Positions 1,225 through 45,792 of a stretch of 48,274 nucleotides of DNA are shown piece by piece. The stretch's first letter is position 1; each line of letters begins with the position of its first letter. Below the pieces are notes generated by a model. The model saw only the letters and a list, made by a program, of their open reading frames with translations, had not been told where the DNA came from and made no database searches. The stretch is from NCBI GenBank assembly GCA_018398765.1, contig JAHBMJ010000427.1:1-48274 (forward strand), written 5' to 3'. The DNA is from Chromera velia (Eukaryota). A program made the translations under genes and the position numbers.

Positions 1225-1533
1225 AATGATCGCCCATTTGGTTCGGACTGACATGCAGATTATAACTGCATGTCGATCAATATACATGCACGCGGAGCCG
1301 GTTGGGGACGCGTGCATGCATGCATGCATGGGGAGTCCGGATGCATGCGCATGACAGCCATGCAGCGCGCGCGTGCGCGGCCAGCATGCAATTCGATCGA
1401 ATGCAATTTAATTCGATGCCCGCGCGCGCGCCGTGCATGCATGAGGTCGCACCCCTGCCGTCTCCTAGCTGGCGAGATCGATCTGGGCCTCGCGAGACCA
1501 ATGATCTGGCAAGATCTGGCAAGCTGAGTTGAC
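1225..1533. repeat. GC-rich GCATGC/ATCGAT-rich repeat fragment, probable non-autonomous transposon sequence
   Basis: Dense (GCAT)n and palindromic motifs after a (TA)n run; similar texture and CTAGCTGGC motif at 19446-19790. Ends not defined. Confidence 0.45.
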
Positions 1534-1539
1534 ATTGAG

Positions 1540-1575
<36 letters not shown>

Positions 1576-2098
1576 TGCAATGTCCCTACGGGACATGCCG
1601 TGGCCCCCAGGGGTGAGATAGGGTGAGAGCACTGAGAGGTGCATCTATGATCGTGGTACATGTATGCAATAGGTTCCCCTTCTCATATTAATACATATGT
1701 AGTGTATGTAGTGTATGTGCCTATGTGCTGTATATGCCTATGTAGTGTATGTGCAGCGCGAAGACCCAACTCGAGATTTTAGCCACTTTCAGTTTAGAGT
1801 GATGGAAGGGGTGCTAGCTTGCTCCGGGGTGCATAATTGGTTTGGATGCCGCCACACTAAGTGTTCCAATACTAAGACCTATAGGGCGCCGCCATAGCTC
1901 GGTCACCATGTATAATGCATGCATGCATGCATACATGTACATACATATATACATCAGACTAAAAGAACACATGTCTTGAAAAACGGAATTTTGGAAGCTC
2001 TCAGAGCGCGATTTGGACGCCTCCCCTAAGACTCATATAAAACCCTGACTCTATATAAAAATTCAGCTGATTTCGTTGTCTCATCTTCTTGAATTTAG

Positions 2099-2537
2099 GA
2101 AAACATCGTCGTTGGCCCTTTTGAAGTTCCTGATTTGTCTTCTCTTTCAAAAAAAGAGAGAGAAGAAAAAATAAAGAATGAGTTGAACCTAGAGGCTAAA
2201 GAGCATATTATCTTTAGCCTCGGTAACACACTAGGGTAGCACATCCCCTTCTTGTGTAGAGTGTGGGAAGGGGTATAAGAGGGGGGAATATACAGTTTGA
2301 CGGAGAAAGGCGAAGGGCACATACAGAGTGCGGCACACTTTTCTTTGGTCTAATTTGGAGATGGACCATATAGTGCCCGTGAACAACACGGCCCATCCTT
2401 GGAGACTCTGCAAGCTGGACTTCAAGAAGTTCAGCATGGCTGTGTGACAAGAGAGGATGGATAGATTCATTGCAGAGGCCAATGGTACACATAGGCCGGT
2501 GCACCTTTTATGTAAAGACTGCCACACTGCAGTCTGA
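2099..2537 (+). pseudogene. HNH endonuclease remnant
   Basis: Frame from 2301 reads WSNLEMDHIVPVNNTAHPW...V*QERMDRFIAEANGTHRPVHLLCKDCHTAV*. DHIVP (2364-2378) and LCKDCH (2508-2525) are the HNH signature. 'TECG' lies in an adjacent frame just upstream. In-frame TGA at 2445, frameshifts upstream, possible TTTAG acceptor at 2098. Confidence 0.75.
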
Positions 2538-2987
2538 TAGGCTCGGGAACCCACAGGAAAGTCTCCCACTCTATCAGACTTGGTCAGTTGAATATATAAA
2601 AATATGTAGTCTTGTCTGACTCTATGTTTATTCATAGATGGACCTATTCTCATGTACACAATCTTGTATATCTTTTTTCAAATGATTCTCATCAATATGC
2701 ATTAATTTGCATGCATGTACTCTTTGTCAATATACATATATGCACTCATACAGATTCATACACATGAATACATTCAACCACACGTTTACTCACCCACTCA
2801 CACCCACTCTCCCGTCCCGACAGCCACAGTTACACTCTGGTTTCTTGAATGCTTCTTCCATAAGGCCTTCTTCTACCCTTTCATCAGCTTTATCATCTGC
2901 ATCTCCTCCAAAGTTCTTCGAACTGTTGGCCTTTAGAAATAAACACACCTTTCTCCCCCCCGACTCCCACTCACAGACCGTCTTGCA

Positions 2988-4047
2988 TCAATGGTGCCTA
3001 CTGACTTCCCGTAGAGCTTTTAAAAGCTCCCCAAAATTAAATTTCCCTCCTCCTGCTGCAAAAAGTTTCTTTTTTTACTTGAATTTCCATTCCTGCAAGT
3101 AGTAGTAGAGAGGGGGATTTCCCTTCTTATCCACTGTGCATTCAATTTGCTGCCTCTGCAAATTGTACAGATACAAGAAGAGACGGATCCGATTGAAAAG
3201 ACTCTCTATCTTGAGAGAACTCTTTGGATTGCCTTGCAAGTCTTTCTCATCTTTCTTTACATACTCACGTTTGCCATAATTACACTTCGTTGTCAAGATG
3301 TCTGCACGGGCCAGAATCTTTGGGCAGTAAGCCTTCAGAGCATCTGTGTACAGCTCTATACATATAGTACAGGTGTTGATGATGAATTCTATGATGTTTC
3401 CCTTTGTGCGTGCACCATTCGAACAAAAGCACCGTGAGGGTCCTTTGCCTGTCTCTACGCAGGATTCTTTCCAAAGAAGGCGTCTTTCAGATCAATGTAG
3501 GCAATTCTTTTTCCCTCTTGCTCTGCTAGGCCCCCCATCTGCTGAAAGGTGTTCTGGTTAAACTCATCCACCCATGCATGCACATAGCGGTAGAATGTCT
3601 GAATTTGCTTTACTGTAACAGTGAAACTCTACTTGCACTCTTTGTTCCTTTTGTCTATCAGTTTCTTAAGAGAAGAGAAAAGTGTCCACACTTTCAGAGG
3701 AGGCAGACTTTCTCCCCATGTGTAGGCAGCCAGACACTTGCTTCTGGAGAGAGATCGGAGAAGCGCGTGTCGATCAAAGTGCCAGTGGAGATGTTGTATT
3801 CCGTGTTCTTACATCCTGGGGTAGCGCATCTCCCAGTACAGGTCTCTATGGGGTCGCCTTCTATCGTGAAGTCAAGATAGATACAGAATGAATGCTTGCA
3901 TCTGTCACATTGTTTTTCAAGAGACAGCAGCCCCCACTGTAGCACCTGAATGACCAAAGGGACCGTACCTTGATTCAAGATATCTTTCAGCTCAAACACT
4001 GACGTAGGTACGTTTGTGAAATCGGCTATTGTGTGAAATGATATCAA
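2988..4047 (-). pseudogene. Merlin / IS1595 (ISXO2-like) DDE transposase remnant
   Basis: Collinear motifs across frames: Zn ribbon GLLSLEKQCDRC...RCATPGC...ISTGT; MGG..GKRIAYID (D ~3491); ELYTDALKAY (D ~3342); CNYGKREYVK (cf. VNHxKxEYV); KIESLFNRIR (E ~3204, cf. NxIESFWxxLK); LYYYLQEWKFK; FGELLKAL. Contains stops and frameshifts. Confidence 0.85.
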
Positions 4048-4654
4048 TGTAAACCTGTGTTCACTTGTGTGTGTATCTTTATATGTGCAGGTGCTGTGTG
4101 GGTCAGATGACAGAAGGAAAAGCGAAGACTGTGAGATTGACGTCGACGGTTAAAACCGATTTTAGCTCGGACTATTACTTTTTAAATCACCCCTTTAGTC
4201 CCCAACTCTAAAAATTCTACTTAAAGATGCTTTTAAATTTTAATATAATTTTAGATACTCACCCCTGTCAAATATTAACTTTAGAAATCTAAAAATCTCG
4301 ACTTAGGTCTTCAAGCCCATATTAATATATGGTGCATGACAAAACCCTCAATCACGGTTGTTGGCTATGCAAAAGCGTAGCCGCGGTATTTATAAATGCC
4401 GTAGAGGGCCGGAGACGGCTGGACGGGCTTCAAGACGGTTGAGAAGAAGAAATAAGAAGAGCTCTGCTATTAGATACGTTTGCTAATAAGAAAATTAATG
4501 ACGTACAAAGACTTTGCTAACACATAATATTAACGTGAATAAACGTGAAACCTTCCTGAACCTAAGTGCTACTTGAAAAAATATAATCAAGATCATCTCT
4601 ATCCATGGCATCTTTTTTCAAGAGACCGTCCACGCCTCAAGACACCGTCCAGAT

Positions 4655-5668
4655 CCTAGTTGCATGATGGCCGGGTAATTACCAGGTAACCGGTTACCTG
4701 GCCCAGCTAGACCAATTTTTTAACAATGGCCAGGTTACCGGTTTACCGGCCATATAATTAAAAAAAAAACAAAAATAAAAATCTAGAAAAAAAAATTAAA
4801 AAAAAATATAGAAAAAAAAATTATAGAAAAAAAATTTAAAAAAAATCTGGCCGCATTCGAAAGACGCGGAAACTTTTGAATCCTAAAACTGTTTTTCTTT
4901 CACGCATGAAACTCATATGCATGCACAACAAGCGAATAACATGCATGAAAATCGATGAAACACATTCATGCGGCATGAAAGCACACACACATACACAAAA
5001 CACGCGTGAAACACATGCACAGTCAACTCGACGCGATAGCTGTATCTGAACAAAAACCAGTTGAGGAATTTTGATCCATCAACTGATTTGCGCAGATACT
5101 TTCTATCTAGTGCCTCTTCTCAGACTCTTCTTGGCATTGACGACAGCCCGAGGCTGAGGCTGGACAAAATCGATGACTTCCTCCCCTCCCCCTCTTCTGA
5201 CTGCTTCTGTGGATACATCAGGCTCATTTGCTCTCTCCTCCCTGTAAAAGAAGAATGACAGCTGGAATCTGTGTGAACAGTTTGCCTTTCGACATCTTGA
5301 AACTTCTAAGTTTGGCTTCTTTGGGGAACAACTGCTCAATCAAGAGCAAAACCAACGTTTCAACAACACAGGGTCACGACGTTTCCACATAAGAAAGTGA
5401 CTGACCTTTGCATCACTGAACGATCACATTCAATTGCAACAAGAGACTGCATACAGGCGCGTACGGGTATCGCAAGCATGCCTGACGCGCCGGGCGCGGT
5501 CGCGGCGGCCCCCATTGCGCCAAGGCCGCGCGGCGGCTGCACGGACGTCGATCGGGCTGCGGCGCGGGCCCGTGGCGCCGCCGCGACTCGGCTGGCCAGG
5601 TTACCGGCCAACCTGGTAACCACCCCCCTATTTCTGGCTGACTACCAAGTTACCAGGATGCACCTAGG
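4655..5668. mobile_element. Non-autonomous hAT-like DNA transposon (1014 bp)
   Basis: Perfect 8-bp TSD GTCCAGAT (4647-4654, 5669-5676); 11-bp TIR CCTAGTTGCAT / ATGCACCTAGG (1 mismatch); subterminal GGTAACC/GGTTACC motifs at both ends; no ORF. Confidence 0.85.
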
Positions 5669-6339: not shown

Positions 6340-7795
6340 TCACTCATCCATATGCCTAAAGTTAACGACTTCCATTAACACTCTCACATCCACATGCCTA
6401 AATGGCTTTTGTTCACACACTCGCTTTTTCTGTCTCTCTTTGTTTATTTCTATTTATCCACAGGCCCTAGCGGCTTGAAGTTCTATTTACACACTGAGTC
6501 TCATTCTCTCTTAGTGACAGACTGTCTCTATTCATTCAGGTACCCATACGCCCATGCAAATATCTTCTGCTGACATGTTTATGCGAGTCCTTGTTGCTCT
6601 TCATTCACCCACACGCCCAACCGGCTCCTGTTCACCTAGCCTGTTCACACCGGTTCATACACTCGCTTTCCCTATCTGTGTTTATGTACCCACACCGTCG
6701 TGATACCCCAAACGGCTTCTATTTATACACTTGCTCTCTATGTCTCTCTTTATTATTCTTCATTGATTCACTGCATGAGGCCCAAGTGGCTTCTGTTCAC
6801 ACACTTGCTCTCCTTGTATCTCCTTGTCTCTCTTCATTCACCCACACGCCCAAATGGCTTCTGTTCACATACTCATTCTCCATGTCTCTCTTAATTCATC
6901 AGTAGGCCCAAGCGACTTCTGTTTACACACTTGATATCTCTTCATTCATCCATACTGTCAGGCCTAGCCATAGGCCCGAGTAGCTTTTGTTCAATGACAT
7001 ACAATTGATCCCTTTTCATTCATCCATGGGCCCAAACGGCTCCTGTTCTTAGTTTCTGTTCACATACTTGTTTTTTTTGTCTTTCTTGCTTCACCTGCAC
7101 GCCCAATCAGCTTCTGTTCACACACTTGCTCTCCTTGTATCTCCTTGTCTCCTTTCATTCACCCACACGCCCAAGTGGCTTCTGTTCACACACTCGCTCT
7201 CCTTGTATCTCCTTGTCTGACTCCCTTCATTCACCCATACACCCAAGCGGCTTCTGTTCACACACTCGCTCTCCTTGTATCTCCTTGTCTCCCTTCATTC
7301 ACCCACATGCCCAAACGGCTTCTGTTCACACACTCGTTCTCCCTGTCTCTCTTCACTCATCCATAGGCCCAAGCGGCTTCTGTATCTTTCTGTTCACACA
7401 CTTGATCTTTTTTCATTCATCTACAAGCCTAACCAGCAGCTCAAGCAGTTTTTCTTCAATAAGACACAATTGATTTCTCTTCATTCATCCATGGGCCCAA
7501 ACAGCTTCTGTTCACATACTCGTTCTCCTTGTCTCGCCTGCACGCCCAAACGGCTTCTGTTTACAAACTCATATATACTCATAAACATGCTTGCTCTCTC
7601 TGTCTCTCTTCATTCATCCACCTGCAAGCCTAAGCGGATTCTGTTACTGCACATACTTCCTTTTCATACCCCTCTTTCTCCATACACCCGCACGCCCAAA
7701 CATTCACCCACATGCCCAAACGGCTTCTGTTCATACACTTGCTTACCTTGCTTTATCCACAGGCCCAAACGGCTTCTGTTCACATCTCTCCCTCT
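6340..7795. repeat. Degenerate tandem array, ~20 units of ~50-72 bp, core CCCAARYGGCTTCTGTTCACACACT...CTTCATTCAYCCA
   Basis: Cores at about 6397, 6465, 6616, 6707, 6781, 6849, 6907, 6975, 7031, 7102, 7170, 7242, 7310, 7368, 7496, 7545, 7629, 7715, 7764. Confidence 0.92.
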
Positions 7796-9071
7796 TGAAC
7801 TCACCAAGCGCTGGACCCATACGCGGTGAGCCTCTCCACAATATTTTAAAGCGAATACTACAGCATCTACAGCGATATACACTATATATAGACAGTATTT
7901 TGCGTCCCAAATCCTCAAGTGGAGGTAGAAGAAAGTCAAGAAACCAGGTGCTGAAGAACGATAAGAAAGGCCAAGTAGAGAGAAAGAAGACGGGTAAAAA
8001 GAGGTTCCTGCAGATCAAATTAACCGTTTTTCCTCTTTGTCAAGCGCACTCAGTCGTGGTATGGCTTACTCCTGACTCTGTAAGGCGGCATGTCTTAACT
8101 TGCCACTGAGCTTGGTAGTATAGTCAAACAACGGAGCAATTCAGAACAGCTTCACTTAGACGGTATGCTTTATCGCCTTCCTTGAAAACTACACAGATGA
8201 TCGAATCTACGTACAATTCCCCTCCATGTGTGTTTTTGCATATGTACCGATACATCAAGGTTAGATAAAAGGTGATGATATTGAGCTCACCGCCAGGCCT
8301 AGGCGCCAGCATAGGTGCATGTTCGCCATGCACGCGCTGTACATGTAGTTGCCGGAAAGCGCGGGTCCCAAAAGGCAACTGTAACCCGATTTATTGGTAA
8401 TTCGAATTTTTTTTTTCCATAGGTGCGGCTAAGGGCCTTAACAGATACCATGGCCGGGGGCCATGGCACCGGGGGCCACGGCATATATATATATATATAT
8501 ATATTGAGAATCGTCGTCGGATCCAGCAGACTATAACAGACTCTTCCAGGGGTCACTCAATGTTAATTCCTGTCTACATTGCGCTGCCGCATTGTCACAC
8601 CCAGACTCAGATGGCATGCCCGCAAGCATGTTATATGTTAAGTTGAAAGTTATCGCCCGTTTTATGTTTAGGATAGGATAGGACCCACTGCCTGCTTCGT
8701 TGCATCAGTACTCTGAGTTGGTCAGAGGACAAGTACTGGTGTGCAAAAAAGAAAAGTGGTCTTTGCAGCTAAGTGGAGATTGTTGTCCTGAAGCAGTACA
8801 CAGGGGGCAGAAATTTAAGGGGTCGGGCAAATAAATCTGACCACCTATATCTCGAAAGTCTACCAGACCCCGGCATGCTTGACTGCATATATATCCACTC
8901 GTAGACGTTTTCTGGAGCCTCAATAACGTCATAGCTACCGTCAGACCCTGCTCTCAAGAAGGCCTGCTAGACAAAAAACGCTTCTTTTTACGCCTTGTCG
9001 CCTGGACAGATCCAATTGAGTGGAGGGGAAAGATATCCGTCGGTGACATATCTCGGAGCGCTGGTGAGTCG

Positions 9072-9788
9072 TTGCAGACGATCACTGCTGCAGAGCTCCT
9101 GTCCTTTCCGGACTCTTTACAAAGGTTTCAGAAATTCTTTCCACCAGAGACAGAGCCCTGGAAGTGGATAACCTCGATTGAAGAAGCTCTACAGGAGTGG
9201 CAGGCCGAAGAGATGGGTGATGAAGAGGCGGAGATGAAGAAAGACATCCCGCCTGGGGTGTCCATTCAGGGGAAGGTGTTTGTGCACAAGTCGGTCAAGC
9301 TGCCGCCCTTTGCTGCGATCGAAGGCCCCACATGGATTGGTCCAGAAAGCGAAATTCGTCCGGGTGCCTACGTTCGGGGTCGTGTGATCGTTGGTCGTGG
9401 GTGTGTGTTAGGGAATTCGTGCGAGTTCAAAAATTGTCTCCTTCTCGACAATGTGGAAGTGCCGCACTTCAATTACGTTGGAGATTCCATACTTGGAGAG
9501 AGGGCACACCTCGGAGCAGGGGTCGTGTTAGCGAATTTGCGATTAGACAAAACGAATGTATATGTGCGGTTGCCGAATGGAAAGAAAGCAGACTCTGGGC
9601 TGCGAAAGTTCGGTACAATTTTTGGAGACCGGGCGGAGGCTGGATATAACAGCGTGATACAGCTTAGAACTATTTTGGGTCGGCAGTCTGTTGTGCTACC
9701 TGGACTTTCTTTTGGAGGGTTTCTCTTGGAAGGGAAAATGATGCGACAGGCAAATGTGGAATATGAAGTTGTAGACCGGAAATTTTAG
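9072..9788 (+). CDS. Intronless GlmU-like LbH hexapeptide acetyltransferase/UDP-GlcNAc diphosphorylase C-terminal-type protein, possibly a decaying copy
   Basis: IRPGAYVRGRVIVGRGCVLGNSCEFKNCLLLDNVEVPHFNYVGDSILGERAHLGAGVVLANLRLD...GLRKFG is the prokaryotic G1P-TT/GlmU LbH motif. No ATG start (frame open from 8883). Some normally conserved residues are altered. Confidence 0.8.
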   Translation: MQTITAAELLSFPDSLQRFQKFFPPETEPWKWITSIEEALQEWQAEEMGDEEAEMKKDIPPGVSIQGKVFVHKSVKLPPFAAIEGPTWIGPESEIRPGAYVRGRVIVGRGCVLGNSCEFKNCLLLDNVEVPHFNYVGDSILGERAHLGAGVVLANLRLDKTNVYVRLPNGKKADSGLRKFGTIFGDRAEAGYNSVIQLRTILGRQSVVLPGLSFGGFLLEGKMMRQANVEYEVVDRKF

Positions 9789-9844
9789 GGAGAGCGGCGC
9801 TGCGGCAGTGAACCTAATGGACGTGTGAAAGAAGCAGGAACGTG

Positions 9845-10478
9845 CGTGCAGTGAAATTTAAAAATTTTGTTCAATATGACAATATGATGAGCCTGTTTGT
9901 CGAATTTTAAAAAAGGATGAGAACTAGGATGAGAAAAGGTTCTTGGCTTGTAAATAAAGTTGTAAATTGGTTAAACAAAAAAAGTGTTTTCCAAGGTGTT
10001 TTCTAAACAAATCAATTAAATCTTAATCCTAATCCTATAAAAGAACTGGCTACTATTCTTATTTACTATAGAATCGACTCAACAAATCTATTGATCATAA
10101 ACATCTGCGCATCGCCGTTTAGATCGCCGTGCACTCCAGTTTACATTTCATACTCAAAAAAACAATAAATGTTCCTTTGGATGATGACATATTGTCTAGC
10201 ATATTGTCATAAATGCATGGGACGACTTAACCATTAAAGTCACTATTTATCCCTAAACTAGCCTAGCCAATTCAGAATTCAAAGTTATTCAAAGTTGAAT
10301 TCTAGGTTGAATTACTATTCTTAATTTTATAAAGATAATTTATTTGTGAATCAATACATAAATTCGACTAGAAATTCAATCAATCAATCAATCAACATTA
10401 TGCCTAGCATTATGTAATTGAAGAAAACATGCATACAATGAGTACATATTCTGTTGATTTACATTTATTTTTAAAATA
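9845..10478. repeat. AT-rich degenerate repeat-derived sequence
   Basis: Abrupt AT increase; inverted CAATATGACAATATG / CATATTGTC motifs at ~9872 and ~10188-10210. Confidence 0.4.
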
Positions 10479-26747: not shown

Positions 26748-27700
26748 ATGGAGCAGGTTCTGCAGCAATTGCTGGAGGGGCAGCAATTCATGCAGCAGCA
26801 GATAATTCAGGTGCAGCAGACGCAACAACTTCAGTAACAACAGATGGACGCTCTGGGAGCACAGCAGCAACAAACAGCCACCGACGGGGGCCCAATCTAT
26901 CAACAGCAGCAGCAGACACCAGAACAGCAGCAACAGCAGCGGATGAATCAACAGCCGACTTTTTCACCTCCCCAGCGGTCGAACTTTAAGGCGAAAGAGC
27001 CACCGGTGTTTCATGGGAACCAGAAGTTGCTTGAAGGTTGGGTCGCGGATATCAGGGAATACATACAGCTCCCAGATATTCAGGTGTCGAAGCAGTTGGG
27101 GTCGGTGCGTCAATACTTTTCCCGATTCCTCAAGCAATGGTATGATAAGACACAGAGGTCCGCCTCTCCTTTTGTCAACGTAGAAGATCTCTTCACCCGT
27201 CTGTCCGAGCGTTTCCCTGATCCCAACAAACAGACAGACTTGAGAGGAGAAGTCCAGAACGTCCGTTGTCAGGGCAATGAGGGGGTTCACAAGTACTCTG
27301 TCCGATTCAACGATATTGTAGAAGGAATCGTTGATGTGAGTGAGATCGATTTGATGTACGACTACATTCGGGGTCTTCCGGATGAGGTGAGGAAAGAAGT
27401 GAGGAGAAGGAAGCCTGACAGTCTCGATGCTGCGATGAAGGATGCAGAGGAAGCCAAGCAGCTGTTAAGTGGGGGGAGAAAGAAAGACTACGGGGGCTAG
27501 GATAGAGACGGGCGCAGTGATTCACACCCGCCTTTACGACCTCAGTCCCAATCGAACGATGGGCCCGTCCCGATGGATCTCAACCGAATCTCCTGAATTT
27601 ATTCCCTTTCCTAAGAAGAGATCAAGAGGCACATTTAGGAGAATAGGTGCTTCAATTGTCATACGGTGGAACACTCTGCATGCCAGTGCAGGAACCGCAA
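26748..27700 (+). pseudogene. Gypsy gag (Q-rich N-terminus, retrotransposon gag core, CCHC knuckle)
   Basis: ATG 26748, CAA>TAA stop, PPVFHG..W..YF..W, YIRGL, and CFNCHTVEHSACQC at ~27648 after stops. Confidence 0.9.
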
Positions 27701-27989
27701 GCCGCAACAGCAGCAACAGGGTCCTAGGGGTCATGGGGGTTAGAAAAATTTCTACGGAGGTTAAAGACGCATGCACAACCTACAGAGTGGGGTGCAGCAG
27801 CACTACGGTGGTTCGGTGCAGGGGCAGTGGGGGAATCCAGTCATCCCGCAGGGGCTTACGCTTCCTCCTGGACTGTGCCCACTACTGTAGTTCCAGGGGA
27901 ACCCTCCCCAGTGGTCACAGCGCCAGCAGCAGAATGCACCCCCGAGAGGGATGTACTTCACGACCGGGGGCAGGACAGGCAGGAGGGGG

Positions 27990-32697
<4,708 letters not shown>

Positions 32698-40191: not shown

Positions 40192-40618
40192 TGTGAATGT
40201 GATGGTCGGGGCGGGGCTGACGTGCGCGGCACGATCAGATACCGCGGCATGAATTCCTGGGGGGCCACGGCATGCGCGAGCGTGCGGGGGCTACGTGCTT
40301 TGCTGAGGAGACGGAGTTGATTCAGACTGATTGATCTGATGGTTGTATGATTGAGAGTTGTCAGTCTGTTGTCGTGCGTCAGACAGTGCAGATCGTAAGA
40401 TAAACGGACACCGCGCATTTTAGACACACGTTCTCGTAGGCAGCTTGTGTGCGCGTCTCGTCTCCAGCCTGAATTAATTGAGGCTTCTAGATCGATCAGC
40501 AAAGGAACCTCTCGGAAAGGGAGCAATACATACGGTGAGTTTGAACAGACCCTTATATATCGTGTGCGTTGAGTAGCGGCAGCCTTCTAGACGTCTAGAG
40601 AACATTCACACCGTCATA
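40192..40618 (+). repeat. 5' LTR of Copia element (TGTGA...TCATA)
   Basis: Matches 45866-46292 with 9 substitutions by manual count. Confidence 0.95.
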
Positions 40619-40621
40619 ATT

Positions 40622-40645
40622 TGGTGCTCCCAGGCGGGCTCAAAC
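40622..40645 (+). promoter_or_regulatory. Primer-binding site, tRNA-Ile(UAU)-like
   Basis: TGGTGCTCCCAGGCGGGCTCAAAC, 3 nt after the LTR; the reverse complement ends ...GGGAGCACCA like eukaryotic tRNA-Ile(UAU). tRNA identity recalled, not searched. Confidence 0.65.
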
Positions 40646-40678
40646 GTTTCGTTTTCTTTTTGTTGCAGACGTCTTGAA

Positions 40679-41752
40679 ATGCCAGGAGACAACTCCCAGG
40701 TTCCTGCAGCTGCCGGTGCTTCCCCTTCTCCTCCCAAGCCCCATGACTTCAACTGGGTGAACGAACTGAACTCCATAGAAGGTTTCGACCTTTGGAGGAG
40801 AGAGTTCCTGAAGTTTGCCAAGTTCCAGCTCAAGGCCAAGTTCATTCCGGATGATGATGAGAGGAAAGAGCTCTGGACCCTGGCGTTATTACGTGCTTTT
40901 AAGAAGTTCGACGACCTCAAAGACAGCACGCTCACCATCAAAGAGCAGGAGCAGAAGTTTGGGGAGGATCTTCTCGCCGCTGTCGCCGCTACGATTCTTG
41001 ATCCCAAGGAATCGGAGCGCAGACAGTTCGAGGAGAGGTACATTGCGATGAAGAGAGAGAGGGGAGACAACCTTTTCCAGGCCCTGGTGAAGGAGGACAA
41101 GCTCCTTGCCAAGGCAAAGGTGAAAGGCTACAAGCCTGATCCTTCCACTCAAAAGCGCACTCTTGAGAAGATGTGCTTGGACAAGGAGTGGCTGGATGGA
41201 GTGAGGAGGGCAGCCAGTGAATTAAAGAAGGAGTCCGATGCTCTGACGTATGCCGAGATCCGTCCCCGTCTCGTCGAGGATGCCAAGATCCTCCATGGGA
41301 AGAGGGTTGGCAGGCAGGTGGAGGAATCGTCCAAGCCCAAGATGACCCCACCTCCCAAGCACCAGGAGTTTTCTGGGGCGGCAGAGGGACGTGCGAAGAA
41401 GGGAAAGAAAGGAAAGGGGAAGAAGGGCAAGAGGGAAGTGACTCCCTCCCATGATGCCAATGCTGCTTCGTCCAGCAGCTCCCCATCCGGTCCCTCCGGT
41501 TCTCGCTGCTCCAGCTGCGGGTTTGTGCACAGGGGAGATAAGTGCCCTGCCAAGAACGCCACCTGCGGCATGAAAGACACGCCTGGGTGTGGGGAGAAGG
41601 GGCATTTTGTGAGCTGCTGCCCGAAGAAGAGACAGCGGGGGAGAGAGGCCGCCGGGGCAGCGATTCCACGAGTGCCCGGTACCACTTTTGACATGAGAAA
41701 GGGGGATGAATGGGACGAGATGTCCTCCTCCTCTGCCAGTTCGGGTTTGTGA
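40679..41752 (+). CDS. gag: Gag-like protein of the Copia element
   Basis: 357-aa ORF after the PBS with basic region and CSSCGFVH..KCPAKNATC...CGEKGHFVSCC knuckles. Confidence 0.88.
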   Translation: MPGDNSQVPAAAGASPSPPKPHDFNWVNELNSIEGFDLWRREFLKFAKFQLKAKFIPDDDERKELWTLALLRAFKKFDDLKDSTLTIKEQEQKFGEDLLAAVAATILDPKESERRQFEERYIAMKRERGDNLFQALVKEDKLLAKAKVKGYKPDPSTQKRTLEKMCLDKEWLDGVRRAASELKKESDALTYAEIRPRLVEDAKILHGKRVGRQVEESSKPKMTPPPKHQEFSGAAEGRAKKGKKGKGKKGKREVTPSHDANAASSSSSPSGPSGSRCSSCGFVHRGDKCPAKNATCGMKDTPGCGEKGHFVSCCPKKRQRGREAAGAAIPRVPGTTFDMRKGDEWDEMSSSSASSGL

Positions 41753-41841
41753 GTATCCCTGCCTCCGGGGGGCAAAGCAGCTCCTCCCCGGAACGCAGGG
41801 CAAATTCCAGAAGAGCTGCAAGGCGGGGGGGGTTCATTTGA

Positions 41842-44800
41842 GCCACCCTCCATAACGCTGAGAAGTTTGCTAATGATGAGTTTGATGAAGTGGTGGAGAA
41901 TAGACCAGTGCATCCTGTTGAGGCTTTTCTTATCGCTTTCGTAGGAGAAGAGGAAGACAACTGTCGGTCGGGATTGACTGACAGTGGTTGTTCTTTATCT
42001 CTTTTGTCTCCTTGCTGTGAGAAGTTTGTTGTGTCGGAAGAGAGTAGAACAGTGCAGTTCCGTCTCGCCTCTGACGTTGCAGGCCTCCAGAGTGATAAGG
42101 TAAAGACGTGTCACCTCCCCGTTAAAGACAAAACGGGAAGGGTGCGTCTGGTGCCTGAAAAAGCCGTCATTCACTCGTCCGTTGGTCGTACTCTTTTCGC
42201 GTGTGCAAAGAAAGAGCTTTATCTTGGGGGGGAAAGTGGGAGGCCGAGTTGGCTGAAACTTATTGACATCGATGGCAATCGTTTTGTTGCGCCTGTTGAT
42301 CAGTCTGGTTCCGTTCCCTTTGTTCTCTTTTTTAAGACTGAGGTGAAAGACCGATGGGGGGTGGCATCGGCGTACTTGAGGAGGAGTGCAGACATGGCAG
42401 TCCAGCTAGCCAAGTCTCTTCATTCTTATTTTTTCTCTGCGTGTGCGGGGGAAGGAAAAGATGAGACGTCTCTTTCTGCAGAAAATAGAAAGCATCTCCT
42501 GTATGTGCTGCATTCTCGTCTTGCGCACACAACGGGGGAGCGACTCCTTTTGATGTTGAGAGAGAAGGGGGTCGGTCTCTCGTACAGCCTGCAAGAGTGC
42601 AGGGATGTGCGGAGGGAGTGTAGAGCATGTCGGGAAGTCAACTTCCGCCGTCAGCGTTTGAAGCGTCGGGGGTGGAAGGCCAAGAAGCGTGGAAAGAGAA
42701 AGAGGGCTGGGGCAGAGAAGGCGCCCTCCGGAGTGGGGGGTGACGATGAGAGCAAGGGGAGTGATGAAGAGTCGTCTTCGGGGGATTGGCGTCCCTCGGA
42801 GAAGTTCAACAGGATCATTTACCACGACATCAAGGACATGAAGAAGAAGGGTTACGGGGGGTTCAGATACGTCTGCGTGATTGTTGATTGGAAGTTCCGT
42901 CGCGTCTCTCTGAAGGCCCTTCGGTCGAAGGACTATGCAGAGAGGCACCTTCTTTCGTGGATCCGCCGTTGGGAGGTTGCTGGTTTCGGAAAGCCTCTGA
43001 TTGTTCGGTCAGACAACGGTGGGGAGTTTTCGGGAGAGGAAGGGTATTTTTCGGTGTGTGAAAATGAGGGGGTTGATAATGAATTTGGCCCGCCAGGCAC
43101 TCCTGAGGTTCAGGCATTCGTAAAGAGAGCCAATTTGACCTTCATTTCTCTTTTGAACAAATTTTTATTGCAAGCACGCATTCCATTTTTCATGTGGCCG
43201 GCTGTCTTGCCGGGTGTTGCCAATGCACTGAATGATGTGGTGCACAATTCGATCGGCCGTTCTCCGAATGCGTGTATGTTTGGTCGGCCGTCTGGCGTTC
43301 CCTCCATTTCTTGCGGTGATGTTGTGCGCATCACTGACCCTTCTTTTCGTCGTTCCTCGCCCTCCGAAAAGAGTGAGCGTGTTCTTTTCGGGCGGGTAAT
43401 AGGGCCGAGGGTCGTTTCGGTTCTTTTCTGCCGGGGAGGGAGATGGAAGGCACTGCGGGTCCATCCATTTCACATCGTTCTAGAAGAGTGGGTTGGCGTA
43501 GGAACAAGAGACTTCGATGCCGACCGAAGGGGAATAGATGGAAGGAAGGAGCAGGAGATTCCCAGCAGAGAGTCAGATGGAGACTTCTGGGTTGGGTGGG
43601 ATGCCGATGATGACCGCACAGATGGGGTGGTCGGGTCTGATGATGCGTTGTCAGACCATGTGGATGCAGAGGGTGAGTTGCCTCCTGTAGATCTACCCAG
43701 AGGTGTTCGTTCCTCTGTGCTGAAGGGCGTTCTCGCGAGAGAGTCCAACGGTGCCCTCTTCCCTGCTCAGATAGTTAGGGAGGGGGAATAGCAGTTGAGG
43801 GGGGCGAGAATTGCGAGACTGAAGAAGCAGGAGGATGGTTCTTTTCGTCTTGCCGAGTTTGATCGAATCGCACAGAAAGACATCGTGGAGCCTTTTGATC
43901 TGCCTGCTGAGGGCAGACTCCCCGAGTCTATTCTGCAGCGCCTTGCAGAGGAGGCTCCACATCCAGAGCCCCCAGTCCCTCAGCCTGTCGCTAAGAACTC
44001 CGATCCCGTTGATGTTGACTTTCCATCCCCCCTTGATGGGGTGGTAGAGCAAGTTGCCGAAGAAGCGAGAGCAGCTGAGTTTGTTCGTTGGTCACAGATG
44101 ACAAAGAAACAAAGGAAAGCAGCAGTGAGAGAGAACAGAGAGAAGCGATGCAAGTTGACAGAGGAGCGGATAAGCAAGGCAATGGACACACACTTTGAAG
44201 TCGCATGTGCCGTCCTGAAAGCAGAGAGAGCGAGAAAGCTTTTGCAGAGAGAGAACAAAGCGAAAGGACACATTTTGGCCACCGAAGAGGAGATAGAGCA
44301 AGGTCTCTTCAAAGAGGCAGATCGGAAAGAGCTGGCCCGATGGTGTGTTTGTTCTGTTTTTGATTTGTCTTCGCAGACCTTGACTCCCCAGCCGGGGGTG
44401 AAGGGTATCACCCTCCGTTGGGTCCGGACGTGGAAGCTAAAGGAGAGGAAGAGAGTTGCAAAGTCGAGGCTCGTTGCCCGGGGGTTTCAGGACCCTCGAG
44501 ATTCAGAGCTTCTCGAAACCTACTCCAGGACTGCAGATGCAGGCCTGGCAAGGGTTGCGTTTGTTTGGGCCCTCAGTCGGGGGTGGCAAGCAGTGAAGGT
44601 CGATGTGTCGACTGCCTTCCTGCAGGCTCCGATCGGTGAAGGTGTGTGGCTTCATTTGCCTAATGACCTGCCGATTGAGGTCTATCCTGGCTTGCGTTGT
44701 GGGGTGTACATCAAGATTGTGAAGGCCGTCTACGGACTGGCCGATGCTCCCAAGTGTTACACCGATTTCTTCAAGAAGAAGGTTCATGGGCTGGGGTGGA

Positions 44801-45792
44801 CAGAGGTTTGTGAGTCGATTCTCGTGAAGAGAAACAGGAAGGGGGAGGCGATTGGTCTGATGGTGATGCACGTAGACGACCTGTTTGTGTTTTCTCCATC
44901 TGTCGATGACGACATAGCAGTAGTACGTACGATGTTCAACACAGATGAGCCTGAGCGCATGGACAACGGAGAGATGCACACCTATGTCGGCATGTCGGTG
45001 CGCATGAGGGATGGTGAGATGCTCCTTGATCAGAGCGTCTACATCATGAACATGGCAGAGTCTGTCAGTGCAGAAGCGAAGAAGCCGATCACAGACAAAG
45101 ACCTCCTTCTCCCGACCGAGAAGGATGTCGATCCTTCATTGCAGAAGGAGCAGCACAGAAATGTGGGAGCATTGGGATGGGCGGTTCGCACCCAGCCTAG
45201 CCTCTCATTTTTGTTTTCCCACCTGTCCCGCTCGAACACCCGTCCGTCTCTTGCCTCTGTGCTGGCTACTGAAAAAGCACTGTGGCACGCAAAGGTGACG
45301 GCCAAGCCTTTGAAGCTGAAAAAGGTGAGAGGGGTGCCCGTACTTGTTGTGTGGGTCGATGCGTCCTACCAATTAAGTTTGAGAGAGGGGAGATTGGGAT
45401 GGGAGATGCAGATCCTCGATCAAGAGGAGGTGGGTGATTTGGAGAGAGTGAGTAAGGACAACACCGTTGTGTGGGCGAGCAAGAAGTGCACTCGAAAGCT
45501 CGGGTCCACCACCACTGCAGAGTTGTTTGCGATGCGTGATGGTGTCAAGCTTTCCTTCAGTGTGTTCAACTTGATCAAGAAACTTTGGGGGGTGTTTCCC
45601 AAGGTTCTCGTTGTGAGTGATTCGCAGCCCTTAATAAATCAGTTGGCCAGCAGGCAGTGCAAGAGTGAGCCTCATCAGCAGGCTAAGCTTGAGTATGTCT
45701 TGCAGGAGTTGGCAGATTTGGGGGCAACGGTCAAGTGGGTGCCCACTGGTCAGCAGAGAGCTGATCGTCAGACCAAATTTTTGAAAGTCTGA
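41842..45792 (+). pseudogene. pol: Copia pol (protease, integrase, RT, RNase H) with one in-frame TAG at 43789-43791
   Basis: LTDSGCS; HSRLAH..CRAC, YHDI, RSDNGGEF; KSRLVARGF, DVSTAFLQ, KAVYGLADAP, HVDDL; VDAS, STTTAE, SDS, QRAD. ORFs 41890-43791 and 43795-45792 are in the same frame. Confidence 0.93.

What the first reader, a model, noticed from the sequence alone, without database searches (positions are those of the whole stretch)
1760..4312. Merlin/IS1595-like eukaryotic transposon carrying a phage-like HNH endonuclease passenger
Seen: a minus-strand transposase remnant with the full IS1595/Merlin motif series converges on a plus-strand remnant with LEMDHIVP...FIAEA...LLCKDCH. Both lie inside a 21-bp inverted repeat (19/21). 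Neither is apparent as an intact ORF in the track. Established: eukaryotic Merlins are usually described as transposase-only, while transposon-borne nucleases (IscB, TnpB, Fanzor) promote element retention or homing. Inference: this may be an undescribed two-gene Merlin-HNH system in which the nuclease cuts empty donor sites or targets. No RuvC motif was seen, so it is not IscB as far as visible.
Basis: partly seen in the sequence, partly recalled or inferred. Interest (0 to 1): 0.9.

Follow-up and report, generated by a model that had tools for sequence, protein, structure and literature searches.

The report
Transposon-plus-nuclease unit amplified head-to-tail
This is a decayed copy of a 2.7-kb jumping gene of the alga Chromera that carries a phage-type DNA-cutting gene; most copies in sequencing data are joined end to start, likely as long arrays or circles, and the nuclease is predicted to drive that amplification.

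Summary
The window has a broken copy of a two-gene element of Chromera velia: a divergent Merlin/IS1595 transposase (4029-2790, minus) converging on a 139-aa HNH nuclease gene (2105-2537, plus) inside inverted repeats. An intact HNH and an open 303-aa transposase part exist in databases, and one contig carries both genes at equal depth. New here: in 4 of 4 runs examined, the element's left end is preceded by its own right end across a 17-bp spacer. Where depth can be compared, this junction is about as deep as the body. The dominant form, roughly 100 copies by depth, is therefore head-to-tail (array or circle). A metagenome contig pairs the same HNH family with an unrelated Tc1-type transposase, again as a head-to-tail 2.1-kb unit. 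The closest known system is KolobokP of animals (DDE transposase, convergent His-Me nuclease, multimers), but the transposase, nuclease type and end structure differ. Cutting of empty donor sites is unlikely; nuclease-induced multimerisation is the better model and is untested. Arrays and circles could not be told apart.

The parts
1583..1698 (.). Left half of a multicopy host repeat into which the unit inserted
   Evidence: Contigs join this stretch directly to 4316-4583 (X12 1681>4316; X1 1687>4327) and X11 reads 1647-1698 straight into the right flank
1694..1698 (+). Candidate 5-bp target duplication (CATAT; second copy 4318-4322); not the 8-9 bp of Merlin
   Evidence: Inferred from the X11 empty allele and the window. 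Against the X12 empty allele the duplication would be about 15 bp with 2 mismatches, so the length is ambiguous
1696..1738 (+). Extra copies of the junction spacer (two more 17-mers plus 9 bp), seen only in this copy
   Evidence: TRF period 17, 2.9 copies at 1705-1754; no contig cover at 1708-1729 in 4 of 4 runs, which a filter could also cause
1739..1755 (+). 17-bp spacer that lies between right and left inverted repeats in the head-to-tail majority form
   Evidence: Joint 4314>1736 with 3 letters fitting either side; right-end sequence precedes 1736 in X1, X11, X2, X6
1755..1780 (+). Left terminal inverted repeat (core 1760-1780); first base A here, G in one other chromosomal copy
   Evidence: 21 of 26 match to right end; unique flank ending in G before 1756 in X1 and X11
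1907..1954 (.). TGCATGCA-rich tract about 150 bp upstream of the HNH start; a similar tract lies upstream of the HNH in L001 (1061-1088)
   Evidence: The motif also occurs elsewhere in the window (17 times). That it is an ApiAP2 binding motif is recalled, not from a call
2105..2537 (+). HNH (His-Me finger) nuclease gene, 139 aa when intact; here start codon lost, 13-bp insertion near 2222, two TGA stops
   Evidence: tblastn of P0002: 2105-2230 and 2193-2534; 2107 C>G and 13 letters left out in the majority; Atlas 28 of 30 hits in the PF01844 set
2790..4029 (-). Divergent Merlin/IS1595 DDE transposase gene, about 465 aa inferred for the majority form; here start lost, 1-bp loss at 3737, 169-bp deletion at 3414, 6-bp insertions at 3141 and 3612, several stops
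   Evidence: NCBIfam NF033547 E=7.4e-5, under cut-off; Atlas 30 of 30 PF12762, TM 0.64
4292..4317 (-). Right terminal inverted repeat, beginning GG as in Merlin; the insertion ends exactly here
   Evidence: GG termini per PMC8101967
4318..4583 (.). Right half of the host repeat
   Evidence: X12 record 9 covers 4316-4583 and 1583-1681 on one contig

Best explanation
The window holds a mutation-worn single copy of a 2.7-kb Chromera element encoding a Merlin/IS1595-type transposase and a convergent HNH nuclease, and most copies in the sequencing runs are joined head-to-tail, likely as long chromosomal arrays that the nuclease is predicted to expand by cutting at or near the junction. Shown: the two genes, their co-occurrence, the dominant junction, and the decay of this copy. 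Inferred steps: (1) the abutted inverted repeats form a roughly 68-bp imperfect palindrome that a dimeric HNH could cut or nick; (2) repair off a sister unit (unequal crossover or rolling replication) adds units and sheds circles, keeping the majority uniform and intact; (3) the transposase cuts at the right GG end and moves single units, spacer included, to new sites; (4) such lone copies are silenced and decay by C-to-T change, as here. This is the KolobokP model reached independently with other parts.
For: Junction in 4 of 4 runs. Junction depth against body depth: X2 13.8 vs 16.9-17.8, X6 19.3 vs 17.1. X11 body contig 2366x against 24x for a unique-flank contig; X1 majority letters 6,800-10,000 where 2-3 contigs are summed, against 32-50x for unique or window-identical contigs. 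Only two unique-flank left ends appear among the 12 loose-end rows (1739, 1756). Intact HNH proteins P0002-P0004, one named as an MMETSP transcript. Conserved L-E-x-D/H-H and C-x-x-C/H-H motifs in 7 of 7 family members. L001 pairs the same HNH family (43% to P0002, E=2.5e-10) with a DDE_3/Tc1-type transposase on the opposite strand, and its 123-nt terminal repeat shows a head-to-tail 2130-bp unit. KolobokP precedent (PMC9587614). Two of three known chromosomal left ends start at the spacer (this copy; X11 1739). Decay: 9 of 10 HNH and 23 of 29 transposase residue differences fit one C>T or G>A change in the window.
Against: No nuclease activity or target was tested. HNH support from curated models is weak (Pfam E=0.045; PHROG best 0.02). 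Only contigs were laid, so arrays and circles look alike, and the tool warns that depth is not copy number. X2 and X6 may hold the same strain's DNA, so they are not independent biology. The recurrent break at the right end is also where the transposase alone would cut, so it does not need the HNH. In L001 the inverted repeats separate the two genes instead of enclosing both, and both its genes have a frame break. Genomic context is known for only 2 of the 8 HNH family members aligned.
Confidence: 0.5

Rival explanations
1. The majority form is a free 2.7-kb circle (a nuclear plasmid built from a transposon) at about 100 copies per genome. The HNH would nick it to start rolling-circle or recombination-dependent replication, and the transposase would occasionally integrate an opened circle.
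For: The same junction data. Very few chromosomal ends, and this one is a monomer. The majority is uniform enough to assemble as one 2467-bp contig and keeps an intact HNH while this chromosomal copy shows heavy C>T decay. Two of three left ends begin where a circle opened at the right end would begin. L001 closes on itself.
Against: No replication protein is encoded. Annotated genomic gene models match the majority state (P0005, P0007), one run on into another gene's sequence. One or two large arrays explain the data equally well. No Chromera plasmid surfaced in my search ('plasmid' 0 times in PMC4501334). Eukaryotic nuclear plasmids are rare (recalled).
Confidence: 0.25
2. The HNH is a passenger with no part in amplification. 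Two ordinary insertions 17 bp apart made a dimer, and host unequal crossover expanded it into a macrosatellite.
For: The spacer is two related 9- and 8-bp units, the size of Merlin target duplications (PMC8101967). One chromosomal copy has a canonical GG left end. Tandem arrays of DNA transposons without nucleases are known (Bari1; recalled; a Bari review was listed, not read).
Against: The same nuclease family recurs with an unrelated transposase in a second head-to-tail unit (L001), and the HNH frame is intact with conserved catalytic-type residues in three database copies.
Confidence: 0.17
3. The nuclease cuts empty donor or allelic sites and restores the element by gene conversion, as TnpB/Fanzor do.
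For: This copy sits in a multicopy host repeat with empty alleles, so a fixed target is conceivable.
Against: The three known left flanks are unrelated to each other. No RuvC domain and no convincing Rfam match for a guide RNA. PMC13565253 section 6.3 argues protein-guided nucleases cannot track new sites. It does not explain the dominant junction.
Confidence: 0.05
4. The junction is an assembly artefact, or the element belongs to a co-cultured microbe or phage.
For: Only contigs were available. Atlas neighbours are phage and bacterial proteins. Chromera reads held bacterial DNA (PMC4501334 passage).
Against: The junction has the same sequence in four runs. The window copy is embedded in Chromera repeats, with window-identical contigs at single-copy depth in X1. 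Scans of viral and prokaryote genome collections found no relative.
Confidence: 0.03

Closest known systems
KolobokP (Kojima and Bao 2022, PMC9587614; parts 1-4 of 6 of the text read, supplements not read)
   Same: [quoted passage not shown]
   Different: Kolobok transposase vs Merlin/IS1595 here (Tc1-type in L001). I-PpoI-like His-Cys box vs a phage-type HNH with two Cys/His pairs. 450/660-bp terminal direct repeats vs none; units here are separated by 17 bp. Multimers are a minority there and the majority here. Animals only vs an alveolate alga.
Merlin superfamily / IS1595 family (Lopes et al. 2021, PMC8101967; passages, section 11, two supplement searches)
   Same: DDE_Tnp_IS1595-type transposase, short imperfect TIRs starting GG. 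Divergent alveolate Merlins with weak domain scores are described (Sy.m_F1). Chromera is listed as having Merlin hits on short contigs, not curated.
   Different: Second gene (HNH; the word does not occur in that paper's main text), head-to-tail majority, no 8-9-bp duplication at this copy. A 16-nt stretch of this TIR was not found in its 11 held supplement files.
OMEGA systems (TnpB, IscB, Fanzor) (PMC13565253; outline, passages, section 6 part 1)
   Same: An accessory nuclease found with unrelated transposases.
   Different: 139-aa HNH only, no RuvC, no guide RNA detected; restorative homing fits poorly.
Bacterial IS1595 transporter elements with methylase-HNH cargo
   Same: IS1595-family transposase with an HNH-containing passenger.
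   Different: Bacterial, HNH fused to a methylase, canonical 8-bp duplications, no multimers noted.

Membership tests
Merlin/IS1595 | DDE_Tnp_IS1595 domain | tested here: met
   Atlas 30 of 30 feature hits PF12762, structure TM 0.64; NCBIfam NF033547 E=7.4e-5 but 22.7 bits against cut-off 75; no Pfam hit
Merlin/IS1595 | D-D-E triad | tested here: inconclusive
   Candidates D45, D122, E168 in P0005 by motif position (motif pattern recalled, no reference alignment obtained). First block deleted in the window copy
Merlin/IS1595 | TIRs of 24-462 bp starting 5'-GG | tested here: inconclusive
   26-bp ends match 21 of 26; right end GG; left end AG here and in the junction contigs, GG in one other copy
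Merlin/IS1595 | 8-9-bp target-site duplication | tested here: not met
   None at this copy (about 5 bp against the X11 empty allele). Right flanks of other copies were not seen, so the family as a whole is untested
Merlin/IS1595 | Single transposase gene | tested here: not met
   Second intact gene on the same contig at the same depth
KolobokP | Kolobok-type transposase | tested here: not met
   Transposase is IS1595-type
KolobokP | Long terminal direct repeats (450/660 bp) with their own TIRs | tested here: not met
   No second copy of any long part of 1581-4640 in the window; the junction joins TIR to TIR over 17 bp
KolobokP | His-Me nuclease on the complementary strand, downstream of the transposase | tested here: met
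KolobokP | Nuclease of the I-PpoI His-Cys box group (eight conserved C/H) | tested here: inconclusive
   Invariant C/H in the family are C46, H84, C132, H136 only; Atlas neighbours are phage PF01844; no direct alignment with KolobokP proteins was made
KolobokP | Chromosomal multimers | tested here: inconclusive
   Head-to-tail junction dominant; array vs circle not resolved
HNH / His-Me finger nucleases | Family resemblance and catalytic His with metal ligands | tested here: met
   Atlas 0.93, 175 shared features, 28 of 30 hits in the PF01844 set, carried by 11-44% of cluster members; H84 and H136 in 7 of 7, D83 in 6 of 7; Pfam E=0.045. The usual Asn position holds an invariant Glu (E120)
HNH / His-Me finger nucleases | beta-beta-alpha-metal fold | tested here: inconclusive
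   Model pLDDT 78, pTM 0.67 from 7 sequences; no clear match in Foldseek or VIA-align
HNH / His-Me finger nucleases | Nuclease activity | not testable with these tools
   Needs purified protein
OMEGA (IscB/TnpB/Fanzor) | RuvC domain and guide RNA | tested here: not met
   139-aa protein with no RuvC hit; Rfam matches all far below gathering score

The most novel reading that the evidence does not exclude
A family of small selfish circles in protist nuclei, each made of one phage-type HNH nuclease and whichever DDE transposase it has joined (Merlin in Chromera, Tc1-type in L001), that replicates off the chromosome at about 100 copies and uses the transposase only to seed chromosomal copies: a transposon-derived eukaryotic plasmid.
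Probability: 0.25. Interest if true: 0.9.

Novelty: new variant of a known kind. Interest (0 to 1): 0.72.

Why it matters
KolobokP's nuclease-induced multimerisation is an untested model from animal genomes. Here the same design (DDE transposase, opposed small His-Me nuclease, head-to-tail units) appears twice more with different parts, which suggests a recurring strategy and not a one-off. The Chromera case is extreme, since the junction is about as abundant as the element, and it lives in a culturable alga with a 139-aa nuclease and a defined 68-bp candidate target, so the model becomes directly testable. If the units are circles, it would be a new kind of nuclear plasmid in the closest photosynthetic relative of apicomplexans.

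Tried and rejected
No own genome was held, so copies could not be aligned, target duplications catalogued or dN/dS computed. Pfam found no transposase domain in window pieces or P0005. Protein searches found only Chromera copies of the transposase; tblastn in plasmids and phages gave nothing, and the HNH gave only chance-level phage hits. Single-sequence folding of P0005 failed (pLDDT 34) and was not searched. Locus scans: viral contigs 0 of 6, prokaryote genomes 0 of 2, metagenomes 1 locus in 2 scans. No IS1595 reference set could be fetched. No RNA holder was listed on record; X12 is RNA only by guess, so its cover of both genes is not used as expression evidence. I first read the block near P0005 residue 15 as a degenerate first Asp; the block at 43-46 fits better and lies in the deleted part. 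I considered TGA read-through of the HNH stops and rejected it: intact copies have R and W there, each one C>T or G>A step away. A separate HNH insertion was rejected for Chromera: no own inverted repeats stood out and depth is equal over both genes in X2 and X6. Different copy number between X1 and X11 was not claimed because summed contig depths are not comparable. Earlier-findings look-ups by sequence, place and Chromera words were blank.

Full report
Observation. The region holds a 21-bp inverted repeat at 1760-1780 and 4292-4312, 19 of 21 matching and found nowhere else in the window. The host is Chromera velia by the name attached to the nearest transposase protein. No whole genome was available.

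The nuclease. A search with the stop-read-through remnant found one intact 139-aa protein, P0002, 89% identical. Its cluster has 3 members, one named as an MMETSP transcript. It maps to 2105-2537. An exhaustive search found 6 further relatives at 33-42% identity among 1.84 billion representatives, from metagenome, Logan and transcriptome sources on contigs of 0.7-2.5 kb. All 7 keep C46, L80-E81, H84, C132 and H136. Curated models see it only faintly (Pfam HNH E=0.045; HNH PHROGs 0.02-0.42). The Atlas places 28 of 30 hits in phage clusters that carry PF01844. The fold search gave no clear match. I take it as a divergent phage-type HNH; activity is untested.

The transposase. P0005 (303 aa, annotated from a downstream Met) is 85% identical to the window's C-terminal part. 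NCBIfam gives IS1595 at E=7.4e-5, below cut-off; the Atlas gives PF12762 for 30 of 30 feature hits and TM 0.64 by structure. Candidate catalytic residues are D45, D122 and E168 (motif recalled). The window copy has lost the first through a 169-bp deletion at 3414, seen as extra bases in X2 and X6 contigs. Adding the indels listed gives 466 codons from 4029 to 2790, consistent with one frame in the majority form; I did not see that whole sequence. The majority also restores both start codons (2107, 4027).

State of this copy. It differs from the majority mostly by T for C and A for G. Of residue differences, 9 of 10 in the HNH segment and 23 of 29 in the transposase fit a single C>T or G>A change. 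Among 26 listed sites the contexts were CA 13, CG 5, CC 5, CT 3; these are only the rows the tool printed. Methylation-driven decay is my inference. X1 holds contigs identical to the window at 38-50x, so this copy is real and single.

The majority form. Five runs were laid: X1, X2, X6, X12 over 1400-4700 and X1, X11, X2, X6 over 1620-1920, out of 16 listed. One X6 contig of 2467 bp spans both genes at 17.1x. One X2 contig joins 4314 to 1736 at 13.8x against a body of 16.9-17.8x; the matching X6 contig is 19.3x. In one search all 4 runs show the right-end sequence before 1736. X12 showed no junction row. Only two left ends have unique flanks: one at 1756 (X1, X11), which gives a GG terminus, and one at 1739 (X11), the start of the spacer. 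In X11 the body is 2366x and the unique-flank contig 24x. The tool warns that depth is not copy number, so 'about 100 copies' is an estimate. The unit is about 2724 bp. The conclusion that most copies are head-to-tail follows from junction depth matching body depth. Contigs cannot tell arrays from circles. The right end was not examined at fine scale, and X2 and X6 may be the same strain's DNA.

This insertion. It lies in a multicopy host repeat whose empty alleles were seen. It ends exactly at the right GG (4317) but starts with about three and a half copies of the 17-bp spacer. There is no 8-9-bp duplication; about 5 bp fits one empty allele. This looks like a unit opened at the right end, with the other end joined by repair (inference).

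A second case. A metagenome scan with three HNH relatives found one locus, L001 (1 of 192 pattern matches). It has a 123-nt terminal repeat, so a 2130-bp head-to-tail unit, with 34-bp inverted repeats at 973-1006 and 1716-1749. It carries the same HNH family on plus and a DDE_3/Tc3-HTH transposase on minus. A TGCATGCA tract precedes the HNH in both units. Differences: its repeats lie one in each intergenic gap, so the HNH sits between tandem Tc1-sized units and not inside one repeat pair with the transposase, and both genes have a frame break. Its host is unknown. It is one contig, and the context of the other six relatives could not be fetched.

Mechanism. I favour nuclease-driven amplification of chromosomal head-to-tail arrays with transposase-mediated seeding (0.5), then a free circle (0.25), a passive passenger (0.17), empty-site homing (0.05) and artefact or contaminant (0.03). 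The anatomy, co-occurrence, junction and decay are shown; every step involving cutting is inferred.

Comparison. KolobokP (PMC9587614, parts 1-4 of 6 and a term search) has the same gene logic and multimers, and its authors proposed both induced unequal crossover and circular intermediates. This element is not a member: other transposase, no long direct repeats, apparently another nuclease group. It works like a Merlin by its transposase and right end, but fails the single-gene and target-duplication tests at this copy (PMC8101967, passages, section 11, two supplement searches). PMC13565253 (outline, passages, section 6 part 1) names KolobokP as its example of a transposon with a protein-guided nuclease and explains why empty-site homing is unlikely for one. 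PMC4501334 (passages) reports about 30 Mb of transposable elements in Chromera and does not use the word plasmid. Ten literature searches (listings only unless named above) showed no Merlin-HNH or Tc1-HNH multimer; the library lacks most subscription journals and Repbase.

Verdict. A real element, a new variant of a rare known kind, with a testable mechanism and a one-in-four chance of being a nuclear plasmid. Interest 0.72.

Noticed in passing
window 2222-2242: The 13-bp insertion in the HNH gene looks like a duplicated 8-mer with a 5-bp filler, as left by another transposon's excision. L001's HNH has an apparent 10-bp duplication-plus-filler at the same place in the protein (about L001 1366-1380).
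   Followed up: partly
window 2192-2221: An 11-bp-stem hairpin inside the HNH coding region.
   Followed up: no
window 2580 and 4090 (run X12): Contigs run from these places into the segment deleted at 3414, implying internally deleted forms or library chimeras; no GT-AG ends seen by eye.
   Followed up: no
L001 470-620 (minus): The frame break in the Tc1-type transposase contains possible GT...AG ends and may be an intron, which would make the host a eukaryote.
   Followed up: partly
P0008 cluster: An HNH relative occurs almost unchanged in transcript sets labelled Karenia brevis and Alexandrium andersonii, suggesting a shared contaminant or a high-copy element.
   Followed up: no
window 8883-9788 (+): An uninterrupted 301-aa frame with hexapeptide repeats (Pfam E=7.5e-14) that reads like a bacterial sugar-nucleotide transferase; possible horizontal transfer or misassembled contaminant.
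   Followed up: partly
window 26838-32586 (+) and 40577-45792 (+): A Ty3/Gypsy-type and a Copia-type retrotransposon (gag, RT, RNase H, integrase hits).
   Followed up: partly
window 6588-7786: About 13 diverged copies of a 50-70-bp repeat unit.
   Followed up: no
window 4549-4637: A short separate multicopy repeat with many different flanks in X2 and X6, possibly a miniature element.
   Followed up: no
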